Source: a virus (taxonomy: Duplodnaviria > Heunggongvirae > Uroviricota > Caudoviricetes). From it: a DNA stretch of 10,047 nucleotides. Positions within the stretch are counted from its first letter, which is position 1. Each line of letters begins with the position of its first letter. Shown piece after piece: positions 1 to 9,865 of this stretch. The position numbers were made by a program, and so were the translations under genes. Location of the stretch: the IMG/VR virus record IMGVR_UViG_2706794662_000010. One strand, 5' to 3'. The notes beneath the pieces are model-generated. The model searched no databases and had not been told where the DNA came from. It saw nothing but the letters and a program-made list of their open reading frames with translations.

Positions 1-311
1 GCACCGCCGTTGCCGCGAATAGACTCGCCACCCCAAGAAATATTAATGGGGTTCCCTTTGACGGGACGCAGGACATAAACATCACTTCTGGTATAACACA
101 GCAGGATGCGGATTCCCGATATATCCAGGATATCAGGCTGGGAGCAGAGAACAGGCAGGTAATGTACGGTGGGGCATATTACTCTGCGTACGGTAATGTT
201 ATGGCAGGCCTGCAGATTGACAGTAAAGTTGATGCTTCAAACGATTTTATAGCATTCAGACCCCTGCAAAAATTAGTCGGAGGTACATGGATTACGGTAT
301 CTCAGTTATAA
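1..311 (+). CDS. Tail fibre protein, C-terminal (variable) part; 5' end lies upstream of the window
   Basis: Open frame 3..311 (stop TAA 309-311) with no start in window. Translation ends ...YGGAYYSAYGNVMAGLQIDSKVDASNDFIAFRPLQKLVGGTWITVSQL. It sits directly upstream of a tail-fibre assembly gene, and its C-terminal motif (RPLQ.L..G.W.T) recurs in the inverted cassette at 916-1058. Confidence 0.6.
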   Translation, partial: TAVAANRLATPRNINGVPFDGTQDINITSGITQQDADSRYIQDIRLGAENRQVMYGGAYYSAYGNVMAGLQIDSKVDASNDFIAFRPLQKLVGGTWITVSQL

Positions 312-362
312 ATAGTCAGTAAATAATATATTTTAAAACAGATTTATTTCCAGGAGGATTTT

Positions 363-884
363 ATGGAACTAAAAAATATAACCCGTTATTATCCTGAAAA
401 TATGCCATATGGTAATAATGTTCAGTATTTCCAGAGTGAAGATGGTAAGGATTTCTACGAATCCCTGCCATTATTCACCAAAAAATATAAACTTTGCATA
501 ACACCTGACAGCGGCGTTATCTGCTCAATATCACAGGACGCCTCGGCGCTGTATCCTGCGGGGTTTTCTGTGGTTGAGGTCGATGAACTCCCTGAAGGCA
601 CGGATATTTCAGGAAACTGGAAGTTTGATAATGGCATAATCTCCCGTATTCCGGTTAACTACGCAAGAAAACTGGAAGCAATGCGCCAGTCATATCTTAA
701 TCAGGCATATGAAAAAATTAATGACTGGAGAACGGAGCTACAACTGGGCACCATCAGCGATGAAGACAGAGCAGCACTTACCCAATGGATGGCATACATC
801 AGTCAGGTGAAGAAAATGGAACTACCCGCCATTAAAACAGAAGCTGAATTTAACGCCATTAAATGGCCTGAGCAGCCACAGTAA
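363..884 (+). CDS. tfa: Tail fibre assembly chaperone (Tfa / Mu U-like)
   Basis: 173-aa ORF with AGGAGG RBS at 351-356, 6 nt before the ATG. C-terminal region (...DEDRAALTQWMAYISQVKKMELPAIKTEAEFNAIKWPEQPQ) resembles the conserved C-terminus of phage tail-fibre assembly proteins, and it lies immediately 3' of a fibre gene. Confidence 0.75.
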   Translation: MELKNITRYYPENMPYGNNVQYFQSEDGKDFYESLPLFTKKYKLCITPDSGVICSISQDASALYPAGFSVVEVDELPEGTDISGNWKFDNGIISRIPVNYARKLEAMRQSYLNQAYEKINDWRTELQLGTISDEDRAALTQWMAYISQVKKMELPAIKTEAEFNAIKWPEQPQ

Positions 885-887
885 TAA

Positions 888-907
888 AGAAGGCCGGAAG
901 GCCTTCT
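888..907. terminator. Perfect hairpin AGAAGGCC-GGAA-GGCCTTCT between convergent genes; likely bidirectional terminator
   Basis: 8-bp GC-rich stem with 4-nt loop, 3 nt after the tfa stop and 9 nt before the stop of the minus-strand fibre cassette; flanked by A/T-rich sequence on both sides. Confidence 0.5.
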
Positions 908-915
908 GAATATCA

Positions 916-1058
916 TTATATACTTGCAGCCGTCACCCATGCTCCATTTAACAGATACTGCAACGGCCGGTAATACACGCCGCCGACGTTATCTGCCGTA
1001 TTCTTACCGACATCCTGTACTTTAATTCCGGTAAGAACATTGCCGCCCCCCAGATTCA
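916..1058 (-). CDS. Alternative tail-fibre C-terminal cassette (S'-like), inverted relative to the upstream fibre gene; 5' part runs into the N-run
   Basis: Minus-strand frame ending at stop 916-918 encodes ...NLGGGNVLTGIKVQDVGKNTADNVGGVYYRPLQYLLNGAWVTAASI. This shares the terminal motif YRPLQyLlnGaWvT with the plus-strand fibre end (FRPLQKLVGGTWIT). Maximum size is about 118 codons before the invertase start region. Confidence 0.55.
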
Positions 1059-1326
1059 NNNNNNNNNNNNNNNNNNNNNNNNNNNNNNNNNNNNNNNNNN
1101 NNNNNNNNNNNNNNNNNNNNNNNNNNNNNNNNNNNNNNNNNNNNNNNNNNNNNNNNNNNNNNNNNNNNNNNNNNNNNNNNNNNNNNNNNNNNNNNNNNNN
1201 NNNNNNNNNNNNNNNNNNNNNNNNNNNNNNNNNNNNNNNNNNNNNNNNNNNNNNNNNNNNNNNNNNNNNNNNNNNNNNNNNNNNNNNNNNNNNNNNNNNN
1301 NNNNNNNNNNNNNNNNNNNNNNNNNN
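1059..1326. other. Run of 268 N (masked or unsequenced bases)
   Basis: Directly visible in the sequence. It covers the 5' part of the inverted fibre cassette, the expected invertase promoter and crossover site, and the invertase N-terminus. Confidence 1.
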
Positions 1327-1850
1327 TACAAAGAAATGCGCTGGAATGTGCAGGATGTGAGCTGTTTTTCGAAGACAGAATAAGCGGTAAGACAAGGGAG
1401 CGTCCCGGACTTAAACGCGCATTAAAGCGACTCCGGCCAGGGGATACCCTGCTGGTCTGGAAACTGGATCGCCTTGGACGCAGTATGCAGCACCTTGTCC
1501 TTTTAACAGAAGAACTCCGGCAACGCGGCGTTAACTTCCGCAGCATTACGGACAATATTGATACATCCACTCCCATGGGACGTTTCTTTTTCCATATAAT
1601 GGGCGCGCTGGCGGAAATGGAGCGGGAACTCATTATTGAACGTACACGCGCGGGTCTTGCTGCTGCCCGTGCTCAGGGGCGTCATGGCGGCAGACCTCAG
1701 AAACTGACAGAGAAAGAGCGGGAGCAAATCGCCCGTTTGCTGGCTAATGGCGAGTCCCGTAAACAAATCGCACTGATATTTGATATTGGCCTTTCCACCC
1801 TTTATCGTTATTTTCCTGCCTCACCAGCTCCGTCACCAAAAGTACCGTGA
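1327..1850 (+). CDS. Serine DNA invertase, Gin/Pin/Cin/Hin family (visible C-terminal ~173 codons; start masked, estimated near 1278)
   Basis: Frame beginning at 1329 reads QRNALECAGCELFFEDRISGKTRERPGLKRALKRLRPGDTLLVWKLDRLGRSMQHLVLLTEELRQRGVNFRSITDNIDTSTPMGRFFFHIMGALAEMERELIIERTRAGLAAARAQGRHGGRPQKLTEKEREQIARLLANGESRKQIALIFDIGLSTLYRYF..., stop 1848-1850. Shows the resolvase/invertase core (DRLGRS, MGRFFFH, GALAEMEREL) and a C-terminal HTH; near-colinear with Gin/Pin as recalled. Confidence 0.9.
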
Positions 1851-1935: not shown

Positions 1936-3990
1936 ATGTCAGACTCCAAGTGGAAAATGCTCTCCGCCATGCCCGGAGAGTTTTCAGTCAAGGTTGCCGG
2001 TGGCACGGTGGCATTTATTGAAAGCCCTTTCCGCCCTTCGGGTAATAAAGGGGGGATCACCTTCGCAGACTGCGTGATCCGCTTCAGCACGAAAGAGCCA
2101 TTATGGGTAATGCCGGTATCCGGTAATCCCAGTGCAGAAATCACCAGTTCAGGCGTGACTGGCATCATTCCAATCACATCTGACGTGGCCGGAACGCTCA
2201 CGCCCTCCGACTGGAATGCACCGGATAACGCCGGGCCTTCCGGTAGCACGAATGGCAGCAGTTCAGAGCCGGAATATTACTTTGTTGTCATTCTCGCGGG
2301 TCAGTCAAATGGCATGGCCTACGGCGAGGGGCTGCCGTTACCGGATTCGTTTGACCGCCCGGACCCACGCATTAAGCAACTGGCACGCCGCAGTACGGTA
2401 ACGCCCAACGGTACGTCGTGTACATACAACGACATCATTCCGGCAGACCACTGCCTGCATGATGTTCAGGATATGAGCGGGATAAACCACCCGAAAGCTG
2501 ATCTGGCAAAAGGCCAGTACGGGACTGTCGGTCAGGGGTTGCATATTGCCAAAAAACTGCTTCCCTATATCCCACAGAATGCCGGGATACTTCTGGTGCC
2601 CTGTTGTCGTGGCGGGTCAGCATTCACCACTGGAGCCGACGGCTCATTCAGTGAGGCCAGCGGTGCTTCCGCTGATTCTTCACGCTGGGGGGCCGGTAAA
2701 CCTCTGTATCAGGACCTGGTAAGCCGCACCAAAGTCGCGCTGGCGAAAAACCCGAAAAACAAACTTCTGGCTGTGGTCTGGATGCAGGGAGAGGCAGACC
2801 TTGCCTCAGGAAGCCAGCAGCATAATAGTTTATTCACGGCCATGGTTCAGCAGTTCAGAACTGACCTGGCTCCGCTTGCTGCGCAGTGCGTGAGTGGAAA
2901 TGCCACCACGGTGCCGTGGATTTGCGGTGATACCACGTATTACTGGAAAAACGCTGGCACCGATAAATATGAGGCAGTATACGGTGGCTACAAAGGCAAG
3001 GAAGCACAGAAAATTTTCTTTGTACCGTTCCTGACGGATGAGAATGGACAGAGCACGCCAACGAATGCTCCGGCGGAAGACCCGGATATTGTGGCTGTCG
3101 GGTATTACGGTGCAGCATCCCGAACCCAGGGCAGTTTTGTTTCGACACAGCGTGACAGCCATTTCAGCTCATGGGCACGCAGGGGCGTCATTTCAGACCG
3201 TCTGGCCTCAGCTATTATGCTCCATGCAGGGCGCACGGCTGAACTGATGCGCGGGCAGACCGTGACACCACCGGATGAGAAGCCGTCACCTGATACACCA
3301 TCAAAACCGTCCACGCCACCCGCAGACACCACGACGATGAGTACGCTATTTGCTTACCGGGCATCTGAGTCTGAAGGACGGTTGACACCACAGGGTTGGG
3401 CTGCCGGAGGTGGCAAGGCTCAAATCGTGGATGATGCCGGAGCCAGCGGGGGTAAGGCAATGAAACTGACCAAGGAAACAGGAAGAGCCCCCTGGTACCT
3501 TGAGCATGATGCTGGTAATGGTGCGGACCTGCTGGGTAAAGGTGGTCTTGTCAGTTGTCGTTTTAAACTCGATGGCGCGCTTACGGCTAATCAGTACGCA
3601 CTGGCGCTGTACTGGCCGGTTTCTGCCCTGCCGCAAGGGGTTACTCTGGAAGGAAATGCCGGTCATAACCTGCTGGCATCGTTCTACGTACAGAGCGATG
3701 CCACAGACCTTAACGTGATGTATCACAAAGGAAACACGGCGCAGAACACGAAGCTGGGGTCATTCGGCGCATTTAATAACGAATGGCATACGCTGGGCTT
3801 CCGTTTTGCCGGTAACAACAGTATTGAGGTGACGCCGGTCATTGATGGTAAGGACGGGACACCATTCATGCTGTCGCAGTCTCCGGTCGGCACGTTTACG
3901 GCAGACAAGTTGCGCGTGACCGATATCACTAAAAATGCGACTTACCCGGTACTGATTGACAGTATCGTGGTGGAAGTGAATAACGCGTAA
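1936..3990 (+). CDS. SASA/SGNH-family carbohydrate O-acetylesterase with Pro/Thr linker and C-terminal lectin-like domain (prophage NanS-p-like sialate O-acetylesterase candidate)
   Basis: 684-aa uninterrupted ORF. Contains the GQSN motif (codons 2299-2310, candidate catalytic Ser at 2305-2307) and a downstream WMQGEAD block typical of the SASA/DUF303 esterase family. A TPPDEKPSPDTPSKPSTPPADTTT linker lies at about 3262-3335, followed by a ~215-aa beta-rich domain. No signal peptide. Weak RBS; ATG at 1957 is an alternative start. Confidence 0.65.
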   Translation: MSDSKWKMLSAMPGEFSVKVAGGTVAFIESPFRPSGNKGGITFADCVIRFSTKEPLWVMPVSGNPSAEITSSGVTGIIPITSDVAGTLTPSDWNAPDNAGPSGSTNGSSSEPEYYFVVILAGQSNGMAYGEGLPLPDSFDRPDPRIKQLARRSTVTPNGTSCTYNDIIPADHCLHDVQDMSGINHPKADLAKGQYGTVGQGLHIAKKLLPYIPQNAGILLVPCCRGGSAFTTGADGSFSEASGASADSSRWGAGKPLYQDLVSRTKVALAKNPKNKLLAVVWMQGEADLASGSQQHNSLFTAMVQQFRTDLAPLAAQCVSGNATTVPWICGDTTYYWKNAGTDKYEAVYGGYKGKEAQKIFFVPFLTDENGQSTPTNAPAEDPDIVAVGYYGAASRTQGSFVSTQRDSHFSSWARRGVISDRLASAIMLHAGRTAELMRGQTVTPPDEKPSPDTPSKPSTPPADTTTMSTLFAYRASESEGRLTPQGWAAGGGKAQIVDDAGASGGKAMKLTKETGRAPWYLEHDAGNGADLLGKGGLVSCRFKLDGALTANQYALALYWPVSALPQGVTLEGNAGHNLLASFYVQSDATDLNVMYHKGNTAQNTKLGSFGAFNNEWHTLGFRFAGNNSIEVTPVIDGKDGTPFMLSQSPVGTFTADKLRVTDITKNATYPVLIDSIVVEVNNA

Positions 3991-4038: not shown

Positions 4039-4134
4039 AAAAAGATCGTTATATCCAAAGCAAAAAATGCAGTGCACCTTTTTACCTAACAGATATTACC
4101 GGTGTCAACACCATGTCAATAATTGGGAGGGATA

Positions 4135-4317
4135 ATGACATTTTTACAGCTTATTTTATTGTATTTCTGCACGGCAGTATGTGCGTTATATCTGGTGAGT
4201 GGTGGTTATAAGGCCATCAGAAATTATGTTCGCCGCAAAATTGAGGACGCAGCAGCTGAAAAACTCAGTAAAACAGCGCAGGTAACTCCGCTCCCAAAAG
4301 ACCCGACCCAGCCCTGA
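4135..4317 (+). CDS. Small membrane protein (one predicted N-terminal TM helix, charged C-terminal tail), unknown function
   Basis: ATG at 4135 preceded by GGGAGG (4125-4130). MTFLQLILLYFCTAVCALYLVSGGYKAIRNYVRRK... has a hydrophobic N-terminus followed by a basic stretch. The track ORF from TTG 4123 has no RBS. Confidence 0.5.
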   Translation: MTFLQLILLYFCTAVCALYLVSGGYKAIRNYVRRKIEDAAAEKLSKTAQVTPLPKDPTQP

Positions 4318-4352: not shown

Positions 4353-4607
4353 ATGCCAGAAATTAAAGGCACCGTCACTGAAGACCTGGTAAAACAGGCA
4401 CTGTATTCCGGTGAAGTAAATAAGTTGCTGAAAGCGCAGGTCCGCAAGGATTTTGAGGCACAAATCGACACTTACGTTGATGAAGTGCTGGCAAAACTTA
4501 TTGGGCCAGCAGTTGCGGCCAGTGATGCTGATAATGAGCCGAAAACCGACGCGCAGCCAGAGCAACCAGACCCGGCTCAGCCCGGAACTGACAGTACCAT
4601 GATGTAA
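4353..4607 (+). CDS. Small acidic protein (84 aa), unknown function
   Basis: Strong RBS AGGAGG (4341-4346) 6 nt before the ATG. About 16 acidic versus 8 basic residues, with a Pro/Gln/Asp-rich C-terminus. Followed by a hairpin at 4613-4640. Confidence 0.6.
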   Translation: MPEIKGTVTEDLVKQALYSGEVNKLLKAQVRKDFEAQIDTYVDEVLAKLIGPAVAASDADNEPKTDAQPEQPDPAQPGTDSTMM

Positions 4608-4774: not shown

Positions 4775-5068
4775 TTAGTCCGATTCACGCTTTTGTAGAA
4801 TCGTTCCCAGAATGCTATACAGCTCATTAGCCTGTTGCTCCATCATTGAGACGGAGGCTATACGGTGCAAAGTGATTTCAGGAGGTGGCACACCTCCATC
4901 TTCTTGCTGTGGAGGAAAAACATAAGATTTAATAAAAAAGTTGAAGCATATGAACTCTCCCGCACTCGAACTGTATTTGCAGGCATCTGAATAATCGGAA
5001 AAATAATCATTATAGATTTCCGCATTTTCAATCATTTTTCGATTTCTCGTCGTTACATGATTGTCCAT
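4775..5068 (-). CDS. Hypothetical protein (97 aa), divergently transcribed from com-mom
   Basis: Minus-strand ORF with AAGAGG RBS 5 nt upstream of the ATG (complement of 5074-5079). No recognisable family. Upstream is a 250-bp AT-rich intergenic region shared with the com promoter region. Confidence 0.5.
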   Translation of the reverse strand: MDNHVTTRNRKMIENAEIYNDYFSDYSDACKYSSSAGEFICFNFFIKSYVFPPQQEDGGVPPPEITLHRIASVSMMEQQANELYSILGTILQKRESD

Positions 5069-5256
5069 AGCAGCCTCTTACGCTGGCAATTAACCAATTG
5101 ACTTCTATAAATTAGTTGATTTGTTTGCTTTGCGGTATTCAAATGTACAATCATTCAGCACTTATGCGTTACAGCACCGTTTAAAATTAGTGATCAAACT
5201 CATAAATTTTCGCTAATGACATTTCGTGTTATTTGTTGTATCAATTAAATAAATCA

Positions 5257-5281
5257 AATCGATCGTTTTTGTCGATCGATT
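5257..5281. promoter_or_regulatory. Palindrome AATCGATCG-TTTTTGT-CGATCGATT carrying two GATC (Dam) sites upstream of com; candidate methylation-sensitive operator
   Basis: Perfect 9-bp inverted repeat with 7-nt spacer; GATC at 5261-5264 and 5274-5277, each inside a CGATCG hexamer; 44 bp upstream of the com start. Mu mom transcription is known to be controlled through clustered Dam sites upstream of com-mom. Confidence 0.4.
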
Positions 5282-7046: not shown

Positions 7047-7319
7047 NNNNNNNNNNNNNNNNNNNNNNNNNNNNNNNNNNNNNNNNNNNNNNNNNNNNNN
7101 NNNNNNNNNNNNNNNNNNNNNNNNNNNNNNNNNNNNNNNNNNNNNNNNNNNNNNNNNNNNNNNNNNNNNNNNNNNNNNNNNNNNNNNNNNNNNNNNNNNN
7201 NNNNNNNNNNNNNNNNNNNNNNNNNNNNNNNNNNNNNNNNNNNNNNNNNNNNNNNNNNNNNNNNNNNNNNNNNNNNNNNNNNNNNNNNNNNNNNNNNNNN
7301 NNNNNNNNNNNNNNNNNNN
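7047..7319. other. Run of 273 N (masked or unsequenced bases)
   Basis: Directly visible; hides the T stop and the H start. Confidence 1.
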
Positions 7320-9293: not shown

Positions 9294-9865
9294 CGTTTTA
9301 TCGCAATCCTCAGTTGTTGTTTCAGCGCGTATGCCAGTTCTTTAGGCAGGCGTTCACGCCGGATACGGTCAACATTCTCATCAAATGCCTGTTTCAGTGG
9401 GGCCGCCATCGGGATTTTCACCACCTGAATGGGAAGGCGATTACGCTTTTTCCTTCCCTTGTCGTCATTGCCCTCCTCATATCTGGCCTGGGGAAGACGT
9501 TGCATAACATGCCAGCGCCCATTATTTAATCGCTGGATAAATGCCCGCTGATAACGATGCTGACCGGCTTTGAGTATGCTGTTCGGACGACGCCCCAGCA
9601 TTCTGATCCCCAGCTTAATCACAGGGAGATCACCGCGGTTAACGATAATTCTGGCATTCGGATTTCTGACCGTCGCCCGTTTCAGTCTGGACCGTTCCTT
9701 TACCAGTTTCCGTCTCACCCTGGTTTCCCGGGCAACCTGTGACGAAGACTGATTAATCGCCGTTGTGGCCACGCGGTTAATGGTCATTGCAGAAGCAGCC
9801 GGAATGGCGTTTTTACGAACCCGGTTCAGATTGTCAATCGCCTGATCAAGCCCTTTTATCGCCAT
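9290..9865 (-). CDS. Z: Tail completion protein Z
   Basis: 191-aa ORF MAIKGLDQAIDNLNRV...RETRVRRKLVKERSRLKRATV...GRWHVMQRL...VVKIPMAAPL...[25 protein letters not shown], lambda gpZ-like. Confidence 0.92.
   Translation of the reverse strand: MAIKGLDQAIDNLNRVRKNAIPAASAMTINRVATTAINQSSSQVARETRVRRKLVKERSRLKRATVRNPNARIIVNRGDLPVIKLGIRMLGRRPNSILKAGQHRYQRAFIQRLNNGRWHVMQRLPQARYEEGNDDKGRKKRNRLPIQVVKIPMAAPLKQAFDENVDRIRRERLPKELAYALKQQLRIAIKR

What the first reader, a model, noticed from the sequence alone, without database searches (positions are those of the whole stretch)
363..1058. Asymmetric invertible segment: only one tfa for two fibre cassettes
In Mu, P1 and e14 each alternative fibre tip is followed by its own assembly chaperone (U/U', tfa/tfa'). 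Here tfa (363-884) is followed after a 31-bp spacer and bidirectional hairpin directly by the stop of the opposed cassette, with no second chaperone. After inversion the alternative tip would be expressed with tfa in antisense. Either the alternative tip folds without a chaperone, uses a chaperone encoded elsewhere, or the segment is a degenerate, locked switch.
Basis: inference. Interest (0 to 1): 0.45.

Follow-up and report, generated by a model that had tools for sequence, protein, structure and literature searches.

The report
One-chaperone invertible tail-fibre switch
This is the host-range switch of a Mu-like prophage of E. coli: a working 1.3-kb invertible segment with two alternative tail-fibre tips but only one fibre-assembly chaperone gene, a layout that is conserved across its relatives rather than a sign of decay.

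Summary
Window 1-1058 lies inside the Gin-invertible segment of an Sp18-like, Mu-like prophage. It holds fibre tip A (1-311, +), a single tfa (363-884, +), a hairpin (888-907) and the opposed tip B (916->1058, -).

- **Crossover sites:** one site and the start of gin are hidden under an N-run. The other site lies about 40-60 bp left of the window.
- **Geometry:** unmasked, near-identical genomes show a 1316-bp segment between two 26-bp gix sites. There is no room for a second tfa.
- **Not locked:** the same lysogen lineage (inserted in elfC) occurs in both orientations. Most genomes carry the orientation in which tfa is antisense.
- **Conserved:** about 35 related loci, including a lineage at only 62% Tfa identity, all have exactly one tfa.
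- **Natural experiment:** a gin-deleted lineage is fixed with tip B expressed and tfa convergent. It has lysogenised several strains at different sites and keeps tfa intact.

Both tips belong to the Mu S distal-domain family, which binds Tfa in Mu, and Tfa alleles reassort freely with tip alleles. My best reading (about 0.5) is one generalist Tfa made independently of orientation. The main rival (about 0.3) is that tip B needs no chaperone. How tfa is expressed in the antisense orientation is unproven. I rate this a new variant of a known kind, of moderate interest.

The parts
1..311 (+). 3' end of the tail-fibre gene: tip A, the last 102 codons plus the stop. This is the expressed cassette in this window (orientation A). 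The gene start, the constant N-terminal part and the left crossover site (about -62 to -37) lie off the left edge of the window.
   Evidence: It is 100% identical to L002:4001-4311, the end of a 296-aa fibre ORF. The N-terminal 190 aa of that ORF match Mu S (PDB 5yvq_A, E 1e-45). A profile of the tips hits the Mu S C-terminus 436-503 at E 1e-16.
312..362 (+). AT-rich (78%) spacer between the tip A stop and the tfa start. It carries an AGGAGG ribosome-binding site. It is a candidate, unproven, site for an orientation-independent tfa promoter.
   Evidence: The spacer is 51-121 nt in every one-tfa lineage but 2 nt in Mu (S-U and S'-U'). A -10-like TATATT ends 30 nt before the ATG, with a poor -35. 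The standard scan finds no sigma-70 site above chance.
363..884 (+). tfa, the only tail-fibre assembly gene in the invertible segment (173 aa).
   Evidence: Matches Pfam Caudo_TAP at 4.8e-19, PHROG 136 'tail fiber assembly protein' at 5e-56 and Mu U (PDB 5yvq_B) at 4e-16. It is intact in all 21 loci checked.
888..907 (.). G+C-rich hairpin (AGAAGGCC-GGAA-GGCCTTCT) between the convergent tfa and tip B. It is terminator-like. The scan calls it only on the - strand, that is, for the tip B transcript.
   Evidence: dG -14.8 kcal/mol and z = -4.5 on the + strand; -14.5 kcal/mol and z = -3.3 on the - strand. The terminator scan hits the equivalent site on the - strand only.
916..1058 (-). 3' end of tip B, the silent alternative fibre tip (last 47 codons plus the stop). 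It continues under the N-run for about 200 nt to the gin-proximal crossover site.
   Evidence: In inverted genomes it is the in-frame end of a 293-aa fibre (L001:12916-13797). It belongs to the same distal-domain family as tip A and as the Mu S and S' tips.
1059..1326 (.). N-run. It hides the rest of tip B, the gin-proximal gix site (TTCCCGTAAACCGAGGTTTTCAGGAA), the gix-gin intergenic region and the first 49 nt of gin. The run is 268 N, but the matching stretch in near-identical genomes is 336 nt.
   Evidence: the gix pattern is found at L002:5254-5279 and at the equivalent place in 8 other loci.
1327..1850 (+). gin-like serine DNA invertase, codons 17-190 plus the stop. The start codon would be at about 1278, under the N-run.
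   Evidence: The full 190-aa ORF is seen at L002:5345-5917. It matches Pfam Resolvase at 1.6e-51 and HTH_7 at 4.9e-15, and is 74% identical to Mu Gin over 184 aa.

Best explanation
The region is the G-segment equivalent of an Sp18-like, Mu-like transposable prophage. A Gin-type serine invertase flips a 1.3-kb segment between two 26-bp gix sites, one of which lies inside the tail-fibre gene. The constant 180-aa N-terminal part of the fibre is thereby joined to tip A or to tip B. The window is in orientation A, with tip A and tfa in sense.

The segment holds a single tfa between the two convergent tips, and this is a conserved design rather than a decayed Mu-type segment.

Shown:
- the anatomy;
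- that the switch flips in nature;
- that the tfa-antisense orientation (B) is the commoner one in lysogens;
- that phages fixed in orientation B spread and keep tfa.

Inferred: the one Tfa is a generalist chaperone for both tips, which are both Mu S-type distal domains. It would be made in either orientation from its own, probably activator-dependent, promoter in the unusually long AT-rich spacer upstream of tfa. The central hairpin would stop the convergent transcripts.
For: **Anatomy and activity**
- gix sites, the in-frame 296-aa (A) and 293-aa (B) fibres, and an intact gin.
- Both orientations occur in one lysogen lineage inserted in elfC.
- Of 20 complete E. coli genomes with the full segment, about 17 are B, 2 are A, and one copy is A with a frameshifted gin.

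**Conservation**
- All loci of this clade with enough sequence have exactly one tfa in the order const-[tipA> tfa> <tipB]-gin: 16 in B, 6 in A, 10 locked.
- This includes the O157 lineage, at 76% fibre and 62% Tfa identity.
- A Citrobacter braakii Mu-like prophage has three crossover sites and three tips but one tfa.

**The orphan tip works with tfa antisense**
- A lineage lacking gin and most of tip A is fixed with tip B expressed and tfa convergent. All 10 such loci share one identical deletion junction.
- That lineage sits at different chromosomal sites in different strains, with all annotated structural genes intact in JE86-ST02.
- Its tfa is intact in all 10 loci (7 alleles), with dN/dS 0.10-0.23 between the diverged alleles (three alleles differ by only 1-2 changes).

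**Generalist Tfa**
- Both tips match the Mu S and S' distal domain, which binds TfaMu in 5YVQ (PMC9608196).
- In P2-, P1- and Mu-type phages the tip B-type domain lies in tail-fibre genes of phages that also encode a Tfa. In C. braakii a B-type tip is the tfa-linked one.
- Tfa alleles T1, T1' and T2 are found with every combination of tip A alleles (winA, O157A, SCUA) and tip B alleles (B1, B2).
- The fibre-binding N-domain of Tfa is more conserved than its C-domain (dN 0.19 against 0.45). The same holds for Mu U against U' (72% N-domain identity although the S and S' tips are 35% identical).

**Own cistron**
- The spacer before tfa is 51-121 nt and AT-rich with its own Shine-Dalgarno site, against 2 nt in Mu.
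Against: - No promoter upstream of tfa rises above chance in consensus scans. Expression in orientation B is therefore purely inferred.
- The region around tfa is mosaic. The low dN/dS in locked loci may partly have been inherited by recombination from invertible relatives, where tfa serves tip A.
- No binding or structural test of Tfa with tip B was possible here.
- Fibres that work without their chaperone are known (Alteromonas phage A5, PMC10579305).
- The orientation counts come from partly clonal genomes.
Confidence: 0.5

Rival explanations
1. Tip B folds and trimerises without any Tfa. The single Tfa serves only tip A, and may also stay on A-type virions as a co-adhesin. The two states would then differ in tip and in the presence of Tfa. 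Retention of tfa in locked-B phages would be inherited conservation, not current use.
For: - tfa is antisense to the fibre operon in orientation B, behind a hairpin, and no promoter is detectable.
- Orientation B is the commoner state and is viable.
- The tfa region is mosaic, so dN/dS in locked loci is not a clean test.
- There is precedent for a fibre that functions without its chaperone, and for TfaMu staying bound and contacting LPS (PMC10579305).
Against: - Tip B belongs to the same distal-domain family as the Mu S and S' tips and tip A. In P2-, P1- and Mu-type phages that domain lies in fibre genes of phages that also encode a Tfa, and in C. braakii a B-type tip is the tfa-linked one.
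- All 10 locked-B loci (7 alleles) keep an intact tfa although tip A is gone.
- Tfa alleles do not co-vary with tip A alleles.
Confidence: 0.3
2. Tip B is chaperoned in trans by Tfa proteins of other prophages in the same cell. E. coli genomes usually carry several.
For: The window's own host carries a lambdoid prophage next to this one. Cross-complementation between Tfa proteins of different phages is known from the older literature; this rests on my own knowledge and was not checked here.
Against: - The layout is conserved in many strain backgrounds and in Citrobacter. A phage that relied on a helper would lose orientation B infectivity in hosts that lack one.
- It does not explain why the phage's own tfa is retained in locked-B phages.
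Confidence: 0.07
3. The asymmetry is decay. Either the switch is locked, or orientation B is a non-infectious off state left after loss of a second tfa.
For: Individual copies are damaged: gin is frameshifted and tail genes are deleted in one TOE17 copy, L029 is a truncated remnant, and tip B has a 1-bp frameshift in 2 of 16 loci.
Against: - Both orientations occur in one lysogen lineage.
- gin and the gix sites are intact in most loci.
- The one-tfa layout is shared by lineages as far apart as 62% Tfa identity.
- B-locked phages have lysogenised different strains at different sites with intact structural genes.
- There is no tfa remnant between tfa and tip B: the gap is 31 nt.
Confidence: 0.05

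Closest known systems
Phage Mu G segment with Gin (S-U / U'-S')
   Same: - A serine invertase 74% identical to Gin.
- 26-bp gix-type sites, with the crossover inside the fibre gene.
- A constant fibre N-terminus homologous to Mu S 1-191.
- Tips of the Mu S/S' distal-domain family and a Tfa of the U family.
- com-mom downstream, and a transposable prophage with a different flank in every genome.
   Different: - The segment is 1.3 kb, not 3 kb.
- The fibre is 293-296 aa, not 504 aa, and lacks Mu's central part.
- There is one tfa instead of U and U'.
- The spacer before tfa is 51-121 nt instead of 2 nt.
- An esterase-type gene (DUF6645/SASA) and two small genes lie between gin and com.
Sp18 of E. 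coli O157:H7 Sakai (Mu-like prophage)
   Same: The O157 Mu-like prophage sampled here (L007, which I take to be Sp18-like) has the same layout at 76% fibre and 62% Tfa identity. [quoted passage not shown]
   Different: The published description that I could read does not mention the single tfa or how the second tip is assembled. The window's element carries different tip and Tfa alleles.
e14 P segment with Pin, and P1 C segment with Cin
   Same: Invertase-driven exchange of the fibre C-terminus. e14 carries stfP/tfaP and stfE/tfaE (PMC12529663).
   Different: In those systems each tip has its own tfa. The statement about the P1 layout rests on my own knowledge.
Citrobacter braakii Mu-like prophage (L008/L054)
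   Same: One tfa inside a Gin-invertible fibre region. The currently expressed tip has no tfa in sense.
   Different: - Three crossover sites and three tips.
- A longer fibre (472 aa) and a 229-aa Tfa with a different C-terminal part.
- A second, fixed collagen-like fibre with its own tfa-like gene downstream of gin.
Chaperone-independent fibre of Alteromonas phage A5
   Same: It is precedent that a fibre with an associated chaperone gene can be functional without it (PMC10579305).
   Different: An unrelated fibre and chaperone family, with no DNA inversion.

Membership tests
Gin/Cin/Pin-type invertible tail-fibre segment | Adjacent small serine invertase with a resolvase catalytic domain and a C-terminal HTH | tested here: met
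   Resolvase at 1.6e-51 and HTH_7 at 4.9e-15; 74% identical to Mu Gin. In the window the first 16 codons are masked.
Gin/Cin/Pin-type invertible tail-fibre segment | Two inverted 26-bp crossover sites with matching central dinucleotides that bracket the variable genes | tested here: met
   Sites at L002:3938-3963 and 5254-5279, and at L001:11938-11963 and 13255-13280, with core GA/TC. They are not visible in the window itself: one is off the left edge and one is under the N-run.
Gin/Cin/Pin-type invertible tail-fibre segment | Crossover inside the fibre ORF, so that both orientations give an in-frame fibre with a common N-terminus | tested here: met
   A 296-aa fibre in orientation A (L002) and a 293-aa fibre in orientation B (L001), sharing the first ~180 residues and staying near-identical to about residue 200.
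Gin/Cin/Pin-type invertible tail-fibre segment | Both orientations occur in natural populations | tested here: met
   The same elfC insertion is found in orientation A and in orientation B. Across related loci, 16 are B and 6 are A.
Gin/Cin/Pin-type invertible tail-fibre segment | Each alternative tip is followed by its own assembly gene (U/U', tfaP/tfaE) | tested here: not met
   There is exactly one tfa-like sequence in the segment and in 25-40 kb of the prophage, and 31 nt between the tfa stop and the tip B stop.
Gin/Cin/Pin-type invertible tail-fibre segment | Fis-dependent recombinational enhancer in the 5' part of the invertase gene | not tested
   Not examined. That part of gin is partly masked in the window.
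Tfa / Caudo_TAP tail-fibre assembly proteins (Mu U, P2 G) | Sequence membership above the curated threshold, with similarity to a solved member | tested here: met
   PF02413 at 69.2 bits against a cut-off of 22.1; PDB 5yvq_B at 4e-16; PHROG 136.
Tfa / Caudo_TAP tail-fibre assembly proteins (Mu U, P2 G) | Required for folding of, and binds to, the cognate fibre tip | not testable with these tools
   This needs co-expression and binding experiments or multimer modelling. There is only indirect comparative evidence.
Mu S-type tail fibre | N-terminal baseplate-attachment region homologous to Mu S | tested here: met
   Residues 1-198 against Mu S 1-191, E 1e-45.
Mu S-type tail fibre | C-terminal distal (Tfa-binding, receptor-binding) domain homologous to Mu S/S' | tested here: met
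   A profile of six tips hits Mu S 436-503 at 1.2e-16 and the S/S' chimera (PDB 8ju3) at 4e-6. The SCU-171 tip A is 55% identical to the Mu S tip.
Mu-like transposable prophage | Random insertion (different flanks in different genomes) and a com-mom module at the right end | tested here: met
   The match ends at window ~6344 with a different neighbouring gene in each genome. Mom matches at 1.3e-77, and com is annotated.

The most novel reading that the evidence does not exclude
A 'one chaperone, several tips' cassette. The single Tfa has its own orientation-independent promoter and recognises the conserved C-terminal strand of Mu S-type distal domains. Tips could then be exchanged, by inversion (two tips here, three in C. 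braakii) or by recombination, without co-exchanging the chaperone. This would mean Tfa specificity is much broader than the paired U/U' and tfaP/tfaE arrangements suggest.
Probability: 0.45. Interest if true: 0.55.

Novelty: new variant of a known kind. Interest (0 to 1): 0.4.

Why it matters
Tail-fibre tips and their Tfa chaperones are usually treated as matched pairs. This affects host-range prediction and the engineering of phages and tailocins, where tip and chaperone are normally swapped together.

A natural, widespread switch in which two (or three) tips share one tfa points to one of two conclusions. The gin-deleted lineage, which spreads with tfa convergent to the only remaining tip, points the same way. 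Either Mu-type Tfa proteins are generalists with their own expression signal, or some Mu S-type tips fold unaided. Either result would simplify fibre engineering, and it can be tested directly with existing lysogens.

This is a refinement of a well-known mechanism, not a new one.

Tried and rejected
- **Hidden second tfa:** rejected. 916-1058 is the in-frame end of a 293-aa fibre. A tblastn panel of six Tfa proteins finds only one hit per prophage.
- **Locked or degenerate switch:** rejected.
- **Sigma-70 promoter upstream of tfa:** consensus scans gave nothing above chance. A laxer scan found -10-like hexamers 20-35 nt before the ATG in each lineage, but AT-rich DNA yields these easily.
- **Shared regulatory box:** the 9-mer TATGCGTTA occurs exactly twice in 40 kb of L013, upstream of com and upstream of tfa. 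It is absent from the window's own tfa spacer, so I did not use it as evidence.
- **dN/dS in locked lineages as a clean test:** weakened, because the region is mosaic.
- **Phage collection:** no nucleotide match. Protein searches found only the O157 Mu-like insert as a close relative.
- **One genome per species:** the scan gave only 4 loci.
- **Literature:** I found no description of a one-tfa invertible segment. The North & Davidson 2021 paper was not held.
- **Multimer structure prediction of tip plus Tfa:** not attempted. The tool folds single window-encoded chains only.

Full report
**What is in the window.** ORF listing and sequence show the following features.
- 1-311 (+): the end of an ORF.
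- 363-884 (+): a 173-aa ORF that matches Pfam Caudo_TAP (4.8e-19), PHROG 136 'tail fiber assembly protein' and Mu U in PDB 5YVQ (4e-16).
- 888-907: an 8-bp G+C hairpin (dG -14.8 kcal/mol, z -4.5).
- 916 upward (-): an ORF whose stop is 31 nt from the tfa stop.
- 1059-1326: a run of N.
- 1327-1850 (+): the body of a serine invertase.

It stops at 1058 only because of the mask.

**Unmasking with near-identical genomes.** The 1058 bp occur at 99-100% identity in 20 complete E. coli genomes, and the invertase side in the same genomes.

In FORC_043 (L002) the arrangement is that of the window. A 296-aa fibre ends in tip A and is followed by tfa, then by the opposed tip, a 26-bp site TTCCCGTAAACCGAGGTTTTCAGGAA, and a 190-aa gin.

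In NCCP15648 (L001) the same 1058 bp are inverted relative to gin. The opposed tip is now the in-frame end of a 293-aa fibre, and tip A plus tfa are the silent cassette.

The two gix-type sites are inverted, share the core dinucleotide and lie 1316 bp apart. In window coordinates one is about 40-60 bp off the left edge and the other is under the N-run. The N-runs do not preserve length: 268 N for 336 nt, and 273 N for about 470 nt. Between the sites there is room only for tip A (about 119 codons), tfa and tip B (about 116 codons). A panel of six Tfa proteins finds one hit per prophage in 25-40 kb.

**What element this is.** Upstream genes in the homologues are Mu-type baseplate, tail and head genes. 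Downstream of gin come a DUF6645/SASA esterase-like gene, DUF1378, DUF826, and com and mom. Similarity to other genomes ends at window ~6344, and the neighbouring gene differs in every genome: elfC, citF, flgL, cheB, a P2 capsid gene and others. That is the signature of a transposable, Mu-like phage. In the window it sits inside the tape-measure gene of a lambdoid prophage. The fibre's first 190 residues match Mu S (E 1e-45). [quoted passage not shown]

**The switch is active.** NCCP 13983 (orientation A) and FORC_069 and NCCP15648 (orientation B) carry the prophage at the same elfC insertion with identical neighbouring proteins. Comparing strands gives about 17 B and 2 A. One further A copy (TOE17) has a frameshifted gin and a tail deletion. 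Among related loci from viral contigs and genomes I count 16 B and 6 A. These genomes are partly clonal, so I read the bias only as showing that the tfa-antisense state is common and viable.

**The asymmetry is conserved.** Every locus of this clade with enough sequence has the order constant part - [tip A > tfa > < tip B] - gin - DUF6645, with exactly one tfa. This includes the O157 lineage, whose fibre is 76% and whose Tfa is 62% identical to the window's. A Citrobacter braakii Mu-like prophage has three crossover sites and three tips but one tfa. Mu itself and two more distant loci (L045, L046) have two.

**A natural experiment.** Seven complete genomes and seven viral contigs carry a variant in which gin (all but its last ~70 nt), the adjacent gix site and most of tip A are deleted. 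tfa is left convergent with the fibre gene that ends in tip B.
- All ten loci examined share the identical junction.
- They sit at different chromosomal sites in different strains.
- In JE86-ST02 all annotated structural genes are intact.

So a phage fixed in orientation B has repeatedly produced infectious particles. Its tfa is intact in all ten loci (seven alleles), with dN/dS 0.10-0.23 between the diverged alleles, significantly below neutrality. The caveat is that the region is mosaic. Tip B alleles B1 and B2 have been exchanged, with breakpoints in the 3' half of tfa. Part of that signal may therefore have been inherited from invertible relatives.

**Are the tips Tfa clients?** Tips A and B, and their alleles in other lineages, align over a common distal domain (RLG...G.V.TG...YYRP.Q...NG.W.T). 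A profile of six tips hits the C-terminus of Mu S (436-503, E 1e-16), the S/S' chimera 8JU3 (4e-6) and another solved short tail fibre. One tip A allele is 55% identical to the Mu S tip. In Mu this region binds the N-domain of Tfa (North et al. 2019, as summarised in PMC9608196). TfaMu stays bound and may contact LPS (PMC10579305). In P2-, P1- and Mu-type phages the tip B-type domain lies in tail-fibre genes of phages that also encode a Tfa. In C. braakii a B-type tip is the tfa-linked one. Being the orphan is therefore a matter of position, not of tip type.

**Tfa looks like a generalist.** Tfa alleles T1, T1' and T2 occur with all combinations of three tip A alleles and the tip B alleles, so there is no co-variation with either tip. 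The fibre-binding N-domain is more conserved than the C-domain (dN 0.19 against 0.45 between lineages). The same is true of Mu U against U' (72% N-domain identity although the S and S' tips are 35% identical).

**The open step.** In orientation B tfa is antisense to the late fibre transcript, behind the hairpin. For the shared-Tfa model it needs its own promoter.
- Consensus scans find none above chance.
- Suggestive only: tfa is preceded by a 51-121-nt AT-rich spacer with its own ribosome-binding site in every one-tfa lineage, against 2 nt in Mu. Each spacer has a -10-like hexamer 20-35 nt before the ATG with a poor -35, as expected for activator-dependent late promoters.
- In locked loci, TGGACA-17-CATATT spans the deletion junction.
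- A 9-mer shared by the com and tfa upstream regions in one lineage is absent from the window's spacer, so I set it aside.

**Verdict.**
- 'Locked or degenerate' is refuted.
- 'Chaperone elsewhere' is unsupported within the prophage.
- 'Chaperone-independent tip' remains a rival, at about 0.3.
- My best explanation, at about 0.5, is one generalist Tfa expressed independently of orientation.

The anatomy, activity and conservation I hold at about 0.9. This is a new variant of the Mu G-segment kind. I found no paper that describes the one-tfa layout, but the searchable library lacks most of the older inversion literature.

Noticed in passing
window 1059-1326 and 7047-7319: The N-runs are shorter than the sequence they replace: 268 N for 336 nt in near-identical genomes, and 273 N for about 470 nt in lambdoid homologues. 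Coordinates across a mask cannot be taken as true distances.
   Followed up: yes
window ~6344: This is the right end of the Mu-like prophage (…AAAAAATCGCCGCGCTA). It is inserted in the tape-measure gene of a lambdoid prophage whose tail genes run on the minus strand from 10047 down to about 6345. Every other genome has the Mu-like end next to a different gene. No complete E. coli genome in the collection has this particular junction.
   Followed up: partly
window 1936-3990 (+), 4123-4317, 4353-4607: A 684-aa DUF6645 protein with a SASA carbohydrate-esterase domain, then DUF1378 and DUF826, sits between gin and com-mom, where Mu has nothing. In the C. braakii relative this position holds a collagen-like fibre and a second tfa-like gene (L008:10934-12486). 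The esterase may therefore be an accessory receptor-modifying or tail protein.
   Followed up: partly
L004, L005, L013, L014-L016, L021, L037, L038, L042: A gin-deleted lineage with one identical deletion junction (GGCCAATA|YGATAACCGCATATTACC) is fixed with tip B expressed and tfa convergent. It is found at several insertion sites with either the B1 or the B2 tip allele.
   Followed up: yes
L008:7819-7852, ~9841-9857, 10190-10223: The Citrobacter braakii Mu-like prophage has three crossover-site repeats and a third, Mu S'-like tip fragment (9890-10054, minus strand). It is a multiple-inversion fibre region with a single tfa.
   Followed up: partly
window 1046-1051: A C6 homopolymer in tip B is C5 in 2 of 16 loci: L002, where tip B is silent, and L018, where it is expressed. 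That frameshifts the tip. It could be sequencing error or slippage.
   Followed up: partly
L003 (TOE17, NZ_CP069093 1467589-1476646): One copy of the prophage in this strain is in orientation A, with a frameshifted gin and an internal deletion of tail genes. The segment and invertase queries each match several places in this genome, which may mean more than one copy; this was not checked.
   Followed up: no
window 5163-5171; L013:16743-16751 and 20221-20229: The 9-mer TATGCGTTA, preceded by TCAGCA, lies upstream of com. In the T1' lineages it also lies upstream of tfa, in sense with each gene. These are the only two copies in 40 kb, against 0.27 expected. It may be a shared regulatory box, or chance.
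   Followed up: partly
window 4775-5068 (-): A 97-aa ORF on the opposite strand to all neighbouring prophage genes, between DUF826 and com. It has no Pfam or PHROG match. It is annotated as a hypothetical protein, or as a partial one, in homologues.
   Followed up: no
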